A DNA stretch of 64,000 nt from Octopus vulgaris (taxonomy: Eukaryota), in the NCBI GenBank assembly GCA_951406725.2, contig OX597817.1:175150001-175214000 (forward strand), read 5' to 3'. The translations under genes and the position numbers were made by a program. The notes beneath the pieces were generated by a model that saw only the letters and a program-made list of their open reading frames with translations, searched no databases and was not told where the DNA came from. Shown in pieces: positions 36,820 through 39,355 of the stretch; positions within the stretch are counted from its first letter, which is position 1, and each line of letters opens with the position of its first letter.

Positions 36820-36901
36820 GTCAAAATCATCAACAAGAAGGAGAAATACGATGCAGTACAAAGTAGGGTTGGTTCAAAGGATAACATCACTCACAGACCA
36901 G
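36820..36901 (+). CDS. tau-like exon D: VKIINKKEKYDAVQSRVGSKDNITHRP(G) (repeat 2)
   Basis: cttttgacttctag acceptor and CAG|gtatga donor. 82 nt, phase 0-1. Confidence 0.95.
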
Positions 36902-37854
36902 GTATGATATATATATGTACATACTTAATGATGTATATATACATACACTTATATTATTATTATCATTATTTCATATACATGCAGCAGATTAAATTGTTGG
37001 AAAAGAAGAATTCCTAACATCAGGTTACAACAAGTAACCTTAGATGCCAAAAACCTTCCTAAGTGTCCTAGCTGTCCCTAATAACACTATTTTCTGGAGC
37101 TGCACTAAACTAGGTTTTGTGTCTATTTTCTCTATCCATTTGTACAAATCTTTAAGGATAGTTCCTAATGCACCTATACAGGTGCAATGTTATCATCATC
37201 ATCGTTATTATTTTTAAGGTGGTAAGGTGGCAGAATCATTAGCATGCCTGGCAAAATGCTTAGCAGCATTTTGTCTGTCTTTATATTCTGAGTTCAAATT
37301 CTATCAATGTCAGTTTTGACTTCCATCCTTTCAAGGGTAATAAAACAAGTACCAGTTATGCACTGAGGTCAATGTAATTGACTTACCTCTCCCACAAGTT
37401 CCAGGCCTTAATCATATATACTTATGCATGTATAAAAACATGGTACAGAAATCTGATTTCTTAATTGAGATATTAAATATACAGTTCACATATAAAACTT
37501 CCTAGACATATTAAGAATAAATATGCAAATATTAACACATAAAGCATGATGGGCTACAATTGTAGCCATCAAGCACAGGTCGACTAGCCACGATTATAGC
37601 CCAGATTGATGCATTTAACTTATGGGCGTTTGTTAGGGTCTAATGTCACTCAAACGCTCTGACACCCCACCAGAATGCAAGAGGGCTGATAGTTCAACTA
37701 ATGACTTTTCAGATGATGTAAAACTTGTCACCATTATATACTAAGAAAATATTTAAACTATTTTTGTTATGTGTGTATGGTAGTCTCATTTTCATTAAAT
37801 GTGCTCAGCAGTCCATGCTATGTGAGTGCAAATCCCAGCACTTTATCAGTTGAC

Positions 37855-38510
37855 ACATATAAGCACCAATCAGCAAACAACTTGTTTGCTGAAATTATAA
37901 ATAAAGCCTGTGCCTTTGTGTCGGCTCAGAATTCCAGCAACTTCTGGCTGATGAGATGCAACATGTCTAAACGATAGTGTCTCAGAATGCTGTGTAGCAA
38001 TGAGCCAAGTGAGTTGAATACGTTGTTGTCATAAAATGAATGAGTTATTCTTCTATGGCATACACTACAGCGACCAGCATATTTTACATCTGAACTTGCC
38101 TTCATTTATTAACAATGAATATGCAAACATTTATTTTAGATTTTGCTGTGCATGATGTAAATAACAATTTTTTCATAGTTGGCAGATATAATTCATTTGC
38201 TGAAAGTATAAACAAAGCCACCAGCTTGGTTTGAGCTCAAAGGTCCGGGTACTTCTAGCTGGAAAGACACAGAATGTCACATCACTAGTGTCCCAGAATC
38301 CTGTGTGGAAACAAGCCAAGTGTGTTTTGACATTCATCATAAAAGAGAGAAGTTATTCTCCTATGATGGTGACCAGCATATTTTGTGTCTGAAACCTGCT
38401 GAAATATATTAAGAATAAATGCACAAATATTAATCCCAGATCTCACCATACATGGTGCAAATAATGATTTTGTTTATCATCTAGCAGATATAAGCACCAA
38501 TCAGCTAACA
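37855..38510 (+). repeat. Diverged ~310-bp tandem duplication
   Basis: Paired blocks TGCTGAAA.TATAAA.AAAGCC, CAGAAT.CTGTGT..AGCCAAGTG, AGTTATTCT.CTATG and GACCAGCATATTTT; ATATAAGCACCAATCAGC at both ends. Confidence 0.7.
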
Positions 38511-39242
38511 ACAAAAATTATGCTTAGTGACATTTTGTTGAGCTCTTCTGAGTTCAAATCCTGCCAAGGTTATATTACCCTTTCATCCATTTGGGACTGA
38601 ACAGATAAAGTTGACTGGGGTCAATGTAACCAACTTGATCCCTCCCCTCAAAATTGATGGCCTAAAACCCTGCAATGGACTAGCATCCCATTAAAGAGGG
38701 GCTGTTGTGATCAAAATCACTTATAGGCTATAGAAATCAGGGATAAAAAAAAAAAAATGTATAACAAATATTTATTTATTGTAACTTTAATTTCTTAATC
38801 TTTTGAACTACTGCTCCTCTTTAGAGCAGTTTTTCCTCCATCTCTACTTTATGTAGAAATTTTATGGAACATTTTTAAAAAATAGAAATTGGCAACCAAA
38901 ATGTTTTTCTAAATATATGTCTCTGTCATGCAAGTAGTGTCCTTCATTTCCATTTTACTGTGAAACATATCTGGCCAATGGGAAATATTGCCTTGTTTAG
39001 AAGCAAGTGAGGATTGGTGACAGGAAAGACATCTGGCCACAGAAAATCTGCCTTAACAAAATTCCATCTGGCCCTTGGAAAAGTGGATGTTAAAATGATG
39101 ATTTTTTGAAAGACGTAAAATTAGTTAACTGATATCAAGAAATGTATTTTCTTTTTTTTTTATATTTTGTACTAATTTTATAAAATTCTTTTATATTGTG
39201 CTAACTTTATTCAATTCTTTATCATATGTATTTAAATTACAG

Positions 39243-39355
39243 GTGGTGGAAATATAAGAATTGAAAACAAACGATTGTCTTATCTGGAAAGTGCTAAACC
39301 AAAGGTGGGCTCCTTGGATAAAGTTGACCATAAACCTGGTGGTGGAGATAAAAAG
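39243..39355 (+). CDS. tau-like exon E: (G)GGNIRIENKRLSYLESAKPKVGSLDKVDHKPGGGDKK (repeat 3)
   Basis: ttacag acceptor and AAG|gttagc donor. 113 nt, phase 1-0. Confidence 0.95.

What the first reader, a model, noticed from the sequence alone, without database searches (positions are those of the whole stretch)
36820..39355. 82-nt and 113-nt exons mirror human MAPT exons 11 and 12, yet the 82-nt exon reads like tau exon 10
Seen: an 82-nt exon ending in phase 1 inside PG|GG, then a 113-nt exon ending PGGGDKK. Recalled: MAPT exons 11 and 12 are 82 and 113 nt with the same boundaries (exon 12 ends PGGGNKK). The peptide VKIINKK....VQSRVGSKDNITH is closer to human R2 (VQIINKK...VQSKCGSKDNIKH, exon 10) than to R3. 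Inference: the intron positions are bilaterian-ancestral and vertebrate exons 10 and 11 descend from one exon like this. VKIINK is one residue away from the amyloid-nucleating PHF6* hexapeptide VQIINK.
Basis: partly seen in the sequence, partly recalled or inferred. Interest (0 to 1): 0.7.

Follow-up and report, generated by a model that had tools for sequence, protein, structure and literature searches.

The report
Octopus tau-family gene, vertebrate-like exons
This is the octopus's tau/MAP2/MAP4-family gene: two spliced exons have the same sizes and splice points as the vertebrate exons for repeats 3 and 4, and the first likely stands for the single ancestral repeat from which vertebrate repeats 2 and 3 both arose, though the shared introns could also have been gained twice.

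Summary
Observation confirmed. Exons 36820-36901 (82 nt, phase 0→1) and 39243-39355 (113 nt, 1→0) are real and spliced in 4 of 4 runs laid. Vertebrate MAP4 has 93/82/113-nt repeat exons; MAPT has matching amino-acid boundaries. The gene is the only PF00418 locus found in this genome and encodes NCBI model P0003 (Octopus vulgaris).

'Reads like exon 10' is mostly an effect of comparing with amniote tau, whose R3 has drifted (17 vs 11 of 27 identities). Across vertebrate tau, MAP2, MAP4 and cyclostomes the repeat is nearly equidistant (13.2 vs 12.6), and trees reject neither placement. That fits one ancestral repeat giving both R2 and R3.

Intron ancestry is open (~55%): PG|GG introns recur in non-orthologous arthropod repeats, while beetle ORFs lack one after the matching repeat and starfish, bivalve and brachiopod isoforms point to another boundary. 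IINK looks convergent; no amyloid evidence.

Also found: 90-nt cassette exons give 5, 6 and probably 7 repeats, as in other lophotrochozoans (the scan noted such cassettes before in an annelid and a tunicate), and a 13.9-kb acidic exon lies upstream. Known family, modest new evolutionary detail.

The parts
21794..21834 (+). 41-nt coding exon, phase 1→0; follows either the first exon or the giant acidic exon upstream of the window
   Evidence: matches P0003 aa 450-463; phases
24265..24451 (+). 187-nt exon, phase 0→1, Ser/Pro/basic region with a degenerate repeat (YRPGGG); no Pfam hit
25588..25697 (+). 110-nt exon, phase 1→0, repeat 1 (KIGS...PGGGN); position of MAPT exon 9
   Evidence: PF00418 43.1 bits; loose end joins it to 36820 in run X2
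36820..36901 (+). 82-nt exon, phase 0→1, 31-aa-class repeat 'Ra'; position and boundaries of MAPT exon 11 / MAP4 exon 16
   Evidence: (42.6 bits)
36902..39242 (+). 2341-nt GT-AG intron, phase 1, inside PG|GG in CCAG|GT codon context
   Evidence: skipped in 4 of 4 runs; codon context
39243..39355 (+). 113-nt exon, phase 1→0, 32-aa R4-class repeat; position of MAPT exon 12 / MAP4 exon 17
   Evidence: best human match R4, 26.9 bits; groups with bivalve 32-aa repeats 96/90 and weakly with vertebrate R4 84/50
45462..45551 (+). 90-nt phase 0-0 repeat exon C1
   Evidence: joined to 39355 in 4 of 4 runs; PF00418 48.6 bits
47646..47735 (+). 90-nt phase 0-0 cassette repeat exon C2, absent from NCBI model P0003
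   Evidence: C1→C2 joint in X8, X12, X14; skipped (C1→D) in X2
48720..48809 (+). 90-nt phase 0-0 cassette repeat exon C3, tandem copy of C2 (87/90 nt), absent from P0003
   Evidence: C3-specific 5' part in 89-nt contigs of X12 and X14; its upstream partner is not shown
53674..53763 (+). 90-nt phase 0-0 repeat exon D, last full repeat
   Evidence: loose ends at 45551 and 47735 read into it; PF00418 53.9 bits
56116..56241 (+). 126-nt phase 0-0 exon between D and the pseudo-repeat exon (which lies beyond the window at 74418-74489)
   Evidence: matches P0003 aa 688-729

Best explanation
The two exons are spliced parts of the octopus tau/MAP2/MAP4-family gene; the 82-nt exon encodes a 31-aa repeat that likely stands for the single ancestral repeat from which vertebrate R2 and R3 both came, and it has the position and boundaries of exon 11. 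Shown: repeat order R1, Ra (82 nt), a 32-aa R4-class repeat (113 nt), one to three 90-nt repeats, D, then the pseudo-repeat; splicing gives 5 and 6 repeats, probably also 7. Inferred function, from the family: the KxGS/PGGG repeats bind along microtubules and stabilise them; cassette exons tune the repeat number; a phase-symmetric 13.9-kb acidic exon would add a long spacer arm. Inferred history: a three-repeat core with introns at GGGx|V, PG|GG and GGGxxK|I (about 55% likely ancestral). Vertebrate exon 10 would be a later in-frame duplicate with the 5' part of Ra and an exon-9-type end. The likeness to human exon 10 then reflects drift of amniote R3 plus convergence at IINK.
For: Splicing. 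Family. Vertebrate sizes. Equidistance: group-balanced mean identity 13.21 (R2) vs 12.57 (R3), and 11 of 21 invertebrate Ra repeats lie nearer R2. R2 is closer in 9, tied in 2 and R3 closer in 3 of 14 named vertebrate proteins, with a gap above 3 only in the amniote. AU tests reject no placement (p 0.20-0.58). Mosaic: Ra shares column 10 (aromatic, 17 of 21) and column 14 (Q, 12 of 21) with R2, but column 26 (K/R, 19 of 21) with R3. A Ra-like repeat is followed by a 32-aa repeat in coleoids, Patiria, Lytechinus, Tubulanus and vertebrates. Parallel gain explains about 8%, up to 20%, of shared intron positions genome-wide (PMC2151770 abstract).
Against: PG|GG phase-1 introns occur in non-orthologous repeats of arthropod-like loci: L059/L060 (R1 and a 30-aa repeat), L064, and probably L061, a GC-AG case whose relatives L045/L065/L066 lack it. 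After the second repeat, starfish, Mercenaria, Mya and Lingula isoforms break at GGxxK|, and beetle genomic ORFs run through both sites (P0311-P0313). The 32-aa length is not fixed: teleost tau R4 is 30 aa and the gastropod equivalent 30-31 aa. Trees rest on 27-28 columns. Microtubule binding was not tested.
Confidence: 0.62

Rival explanations
1. Parallel gain: the PG|GG intron arose separately in vertebrates and cephalopods. Pro-Gly codons give CCAG|GT, which can act as both donor and acceptor, so a repeat-length stretch between two such sites could be turned into an intron in frame. The 82/113 match is then convergence on a hotspot.
For: Three clear and one probable PG|GG introns in non-orthologous repeats, plus one a codon later in L040. 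Boundary at GGxxK| after the second repeat in starfish, bivalves and Lingula, and no intron at either site in beetles. My rough count of events is about equal for the two histories.
Against: It needs two sites (GGGx|V and PG|GG) gained in the same order around the same repeat classes. The R1 exon also shares phase 1→0 with MAP4 exon 13 (my sum of the exon sizes). The genome-wide base rate is low.
Confidence: 0.4
2. One reading: the repeat is specifically the R2/exon-10 counterpart and carries an inherited PHF6*-like amyloid motif.
For: 19.5 vs 6.4 bits against human R2 vs R3. R2 is closer in 9 of 14 vertebrates. Ra falls on the R2 side of the ML tree. Q→A at the differing position kept or raised aggregation of VQIINK (PMC9055513 abstract and passages).
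Against: The profile classifier that of 21 Ra repeats R2-like also of 18 fungal control repeats R2-like, because the R2 profile is more diffuse. The exon is not a 93-nt 0-0 cassette. IINK is in 2 of 21 invertebrate Ra repeats and 3 of 316 unique vertebrate R2/R3 repeats, all three non-teleost tau R2. K or R at position 2 is the general invertebrate state (20 of 21).
Confidence: 0.1
3. The bilaterian ancestor had both a 93-nt and an 82-nt exon; molluscs lost the 93-nt one, so the octopus exon is a plain exon-11 orthologue.
For: Boundaries and the basic H-x-P residue are R3-type. Clavelina has 31-aa cassettes, one right after R1.
Against: None of the 17 lophotrochozoan proteins parsed shows an R2-type repeat (non-basic H-x-P, Cys core) between R1 and Ra. 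The sequence shows no R3 preference. Tunicate arrays may be independent expansions, and their boundary could be GGGx|V or GGGxVK|I.
Confidence: 0.12

Closest known systems
Vertebrate MAP4 (exons 15/16/17 = 93/82/113 bp, PMC4815063 supplement 2)
   Same: 82- and 113-nt repeat exons in the same order; R3 often has NKK and GSK[DA]N like the octopus repeat; its large projection exon is also phase-symmetric (my sum of the exon sizes).
   Different: The octopus lacks the 93-nt exon and the Cys of KCGS, and adds 90-nt repeat exons after the R4-class exon.
Vertebrate tau (MAPT exons 9-13) and MAP2
   Same: Same amino-acid boundaries at exons 9/11/12; R4 is the best human match of the 113-nt exon; repeat number is set by cassette splicing.
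   Different: No exon 10, no YKPV in the repeat, no Cys, no SLAKQGL tail; the cassettes are 30 aa with GGGxxK|I ends. Invertebrate MAPs are an outgroup to all three paralogues (PMC4815063 section read, PMC8985376 passages).
NCBI model P0003 'titin-like' [Octopus vulgaris]; Argonauta P0001; the O. bimaculoides gene noted in PMC8985376
   Same: The window and its flanks encode P0003 letter for letter; same repeat order.
   Different: P0003 omits exons C2 and C3, the first coding exon and most of the giant exon.
Lophotrochozoan tau-like proteins (Haliotis, Gigantopelta, Littorina, Mercenaria, Mya, Lingula)
   Same: RefSeq isoforms differ by 30-aa repeat cassettes bounded at GGGxxK|I.
   Different: Bivalves and Lingula go from Ra straight to the 30-aa repeats; gastropods have a 30-31-aa repeat where the octopus has 32 aa.

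Membership tests
tau/MAP2/MAP4 family (PF00418) | tandem tubulin-binding repeats above the Pfam cut-off | tested here: met
   7 of 8 exon peptides pass 27 bits; all 7 genome matches lie in this gene
tau/MAP2/MAP4 family (PF00418) | KxGS core and PGGG end in each repeat | tested here: met
   K[IV]GS in six repeats, RVGS in Ra; PGGG in all seven
tau/MAP2/MAP4 family (PF00418) | acidic projection region, basic Ser/Pro-rich region, C-terminal repeats, then a pseudo-repeat | tested here: met
   giant ORF 25.6% D+E; basic region and final exon
tau/MAP2/MAP4 family (PF00418) | binds and stabilises microtubules; natively unfolded | not testable with these tools
   inferred from family membership only
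MAPT (tau) orthologue in the strict sense | Cys in the R2/R3 core and the SLAKQGL tail | tested here: not met
   Ra has RVGS; P0003 ends NTGINKS
MAPT exon 10 / R2 counterpart | 93-nt phase 0-0 cassette exon | tested here: not met
   82 nt, phase 0→1; joined to the 113-nt exon in 4 of 4 runs
MAPT exon 10 / R2 counterpart | groups with R2 to the exclusion of R3 | tested here: inconclusive
   AU p 0.32 for coleoid Ra+R2, 0.20 for +R3, 0.55 for R2+R3
MAPT exon 11 / R3 counterpart | 82 nt, phase 0→1, ends H[KR]P|G, followed by a 113-nt R4-class exon | tested here: met
MAPT exon 11 / R3 counterpart | intron positions inherited rather than gained in parallel | tested here: inconclusive
   hotspot evidence and differing boundaries in four lineages; no genomic exon map for gastropods, nemerteans or amphioxus was available
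PHF6* amyloid motif | VQIINK sequence conserved by descent | tested here: not met
   K for Q at position 2; IINK in 2 of 21 invertebrate and 3 of 316 vertebrate repeats
PHF6* amyloid motif | nucleates filaments | not testable with these tools
   needs ThT and EM assays

The most novel reading that the evidence does not exclude
The octopus gene preserves the bilaterian three-repeat core (R1 | Ra | R4-class | pseudo-repeat). Tau exon 10, the 3R/4R switch, is a chimera made by unequal crossing-over between the Ra and R1 exons, and the same process at the next boundary made the 90-nt invertebrate cassettes. Repeat-number switching and big/small projection isoforms thus evolved twice, and one octopus gene covers the isoform range that vertebrates spread over tau, MAP2 and MAP4.
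Probability: 0.33. Interest if true: 0.62.

Novelty: new member of a known kind. Interest (0 to 1): 0.38.

Why it matters
If the introns are inherited, the octopus shows the pre-vertebrate layout and gives a concrete origin for tau exon 10, whose inclusion sets the 3R/4R ratio. It would also place the filament-forming YKPV stretch of R3 as a late tetrapod change: shark tau, MAP4 and cyclostome R3 lack it, and YKPV was reported to favour filaments (PMC5049617 abstract). If the introns were gained twice, the family is a clean case of a codon-made intron hotspot. Either way, the gene model needs correcting and a cysteine-free 5-7-repeat MAP is available for comparison.

Tried and rejected
Profile log-likelihood classification as R2-like: rejected as biased, since 18 of 18 fungal control repeats also scored R2-like. 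My early guess that the repeat is plainly R3-like: rejected, as only column 26 favours R3. Repeat trees: too few columns to decide. Search for short genomic ORFs of the Ra exon: no candidate. BLASTP of exon 56116-56241 against the 113-nt exon to test a decayed repeat: no alignment. No run was on record as RNA; the runs laid are guessed RNA and are contigs, so isoform levels and tissues cannot be read. Junctions beyond 49600 were seen only as loose ends. No raw reads were laid on the giant exon. None of the 67 metagenome loci was recognised as a mollusc or deuterostome Ra exon with flanks. Paper searches for MAPT nucleotide exon sizes found none. Searches listed no paper that, by title or abstract start, compares invertebrate and vertebrate intron positions in this family. 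Goedert 1996 and Heidary & Fortini 2001 were not read and may bear on this, as may Sündermann supplement MOESM2 (too large to read). No structure or complex prediction was run.

Full report
1. Observation. The exon at 36820-36901 is 82 nt, phase 0→1, ending HRP plus one G. The exon at 39243-39355 is 113 nt, phase 1→0, ending PGGGDKK. Contigs from 4 of 4 runs laid skip the 2341-nt GT..AG intron, and one loose end joins 36820 to the exon at 25588-25697. The tool only guesses that these runs are RNA. MAP4 exons 15/16/17 are 93/82/113 bp (PMC4815063, supplement 2). Human MAPT exons 10/11/12 are 31/27/38 aa with the same ends (PMC9755724 supplement, parts 1, 3 and 4 of 4 read). I saw no nucleotide sizes for MAPT itself; its phase 1 is recalled. 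Against human tau the 27-mer scores R2 19.5, R4 16.1, R1 7.3 and R3 6.4 bits.

2. The gene. Seven of eight exon peptides pass PF00418, and all 7 genome matches lie here (counts are lower bounds). The window and flanks encode P0003, named Octopus vulgaris 'titin-like'. The order is: first coding exon at G000:C4:175115368; a 13,899-nt acidic exon, phase 1-1, at 175134844-175148742; then 41, 187, 110 (R1), 82 (Ra), 113, 90 (C1), 90 (C2), 90 (C3), 90 (D) and 126 nt; and a last exon with the pseudo-repeat beyond the window.

3. Splicing of repeat number. The 113-nt exon joins C1 in 4 of 4 runs. C1 joins C2 in three runs and D in one. C2 or C3 (identical 3' ends) joins D in three. C3-specific pieces occur in two. 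So 5- and 6-repeat forms are shown and 7 is likely. RefSeq isoforms of Lingula, Haliotis, Gigantopelta, Littorina, Mercenaria and Mya differ by 30-aa units bounded at GGGxxK|I, so this is not special to the octopus. High repeat numbers in molluscs are published (PMC8985376, passages).

4. Does it read like exon 10? In 14 named vertebrate proteins with both repeats, R2 is closer in 9, tied in 2 and R3 closer in 3. The gap is 6 of 27 for amniote tau and at most 3 elsewhere; shark tau ties 16/16. With five vertebrate groups weighted equally, mean identity is 13.21 to R2 and 12.57 to R3, and 11 of 21 invertebrate Ra repeats lie nearer R2. A profile classifier called 18 of 21 R2-like, but also 18 of 18 fungal controls, so I set it aside. 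Tau/MAP2/MAP4 labels for unnamed proteins are my motif-based assignments. By column, Ra sides with R2 at positions 10 and 14 and with R3 at 26. In a 38-row, 27-column tree the coleoid repeat groups with other mollusc Ra (80/90), R3 forms a group (97/74), and AU tests reject none of the four groupings run (p 0.20-0.58). Sündermann 2016 separated MTBD 1+4 from 2+3 with modest support (section 3, parts 1-3 and 5 of 8 read). The simplest reading is one ancestral 31-aa repeat, co-orthologous to R2 and R3.

5. How exon 10 could arise (inference). A plain copy of an 82-nt exon would shift the frame. Crossing-over between the R1 and Ra repeats gives a 93-nt 0-0 exon with Ra's acceptor and R1's donor. 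This fits R2's ancestral 5' columns and its non-basic H-x-P (V/S/T; invertebrate R1 has T or S in 21 of 23). Against it, vertebrate R1 has Q there in 166 of 177. Support is one column.

6. Are the introns ancestral? For: three consecutive positions and phases match. A Ra-like repeat is followed by a 32-aa repeat in coleoids, Patiria, Lytechinus, Tubulanus and vertebrates. The 113-nt repeat groups with bivalve 32-aa repeats (96/90) and weakly with R4 (84/50). Parallel gain accounts for about 8%, up to 20%, of shared positions (PMC2151770, abstract). Against: among 67 metagenome loci, phase-1 introns at H-x-P|G occur after R1 and after a 30-aa repeat in L059/L060, after a 30-aa repeat in L064, and probably in L061 (GC donor), whose relatives L045/L065/L066 have none there. 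L040 has one a codon later. These loci look arthropod-like by their R1 motif, except L040 (my reading). After the second repeat, starfish, Mercenaria, Mya and Lingula isoforms break at GGxxK|; these are protein-level inferences. Beetle genomic ORFs cross both sites. The fly protein in the PMC9755724 supplement shows no line break there either, though its authors did not analyse fly exons. The 113-nt size is not fixed in either lineage. I put ancestry at about 55%.

7. The hexapeptide. IINK occurs in 2 of 21 invertebrate Ra repeats (Octopus, Argonauta) and in 3 of 316 unique vertebrate repeats, all non-teleost tau R2. K or R at position 2 is the invertebrate norm (20 of 21). The match is therefore best read as convergence. 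Q→A at that position kept aggregation (PMC9055513, abstract and passages), so aggregation is not excluded; an added lysine and the charged residues that follow argue against it (inference). YKPV, reported to favour filaments (PMC5049617, abstract), is absent.

8. How it likely works. From established knowledge of the family, not tested here: an unfolded protein whose KxGS/PGGG repeats bind along microtubules, with KxGS serines as likely kinase switches. Cassette exons would tune binding, and inclusion of the giant exon would set spacing between microtubules. Two unnamed coleoid-like proteins join the first exon directly to the small exon (P0002, P0009), which shows a short form in relatives. 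Skipping or inclusion of the giant exon in this species was not tested.

9. Verdict. A real, expressed member of a known family, already in databases under a misleading name. The exon match is genuine and I found no paper on it in the searches listed under Tried and rejected. Its two striking claims weaken on testing: R2-likeness is not specific, and intron ancestry is about even. Interest 0.38.

Noticed in passing
G000:C4:175134844-175148742 (upstream of the window; loci L009, L008): A 13,899-nt phase 1-1 exon (a multiple of 3). Its main open frame of about 3,400 codons is 25.6% D+E with 99 KP[VE]E[AV] motifs; the frame breaks within the repeat tract (assembly error or real, not tested). It would give a protein of over 4,600 aa; P0003 covers only its last 449 codons.
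   Followed up: partly
G000:C4:175115368 onward (locus L011): A first coding exon ending in phase 1, matching the N-terminus of short coleoid-like proteins P0002/P0009 and missing from P0003.
   Followed up: partly
window 47600-48044 and 48672-49118: C2 and C3 are a tandem duplication: 97% over 205 nt around the exon but 81% over 453 nt. Argonauta has its own near-identical pair, which suggests gene conversion or independent duplication.
   Followed up: partly
window 24265-24451: A degenerate repeat (YRPGGG) about 70 aa before R1, conserved in molluscs and starfish; by eye it resembles the second repeat of arthropod tau.
   Followed up: no
window 56116-56241: By eye the start of this exon looks like a decayed repeat; BLASTP against the 113-nt exon found no alignment.
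   Followed up: partly
window 40880-41156, 42802-43122, 43515-43810: Three long inverted repeats in the intron before C1 (107-nt arms 100%, 142-nt 86%, 102-nt 84% complementary), probably MITE-like; they could form double-stranded RNA.
   Followed up: no
L061:665-745; L059/L060; L064; L040: Phase-1 introns at or next to H-x-P|G in unrelated repeats, one with a GC donor and absent from close relatives: a possible codon-made intron hotspot.
   Followed up: partly
P0145 (Scyliorhinus tau), P0179, P0202, P0232 (cyclostomes): Shark and cyclostome R3 lack the KPV stretch seen in amphibian and amniote tau, so it appears to be a tetrapod change.
   Followed up: partly
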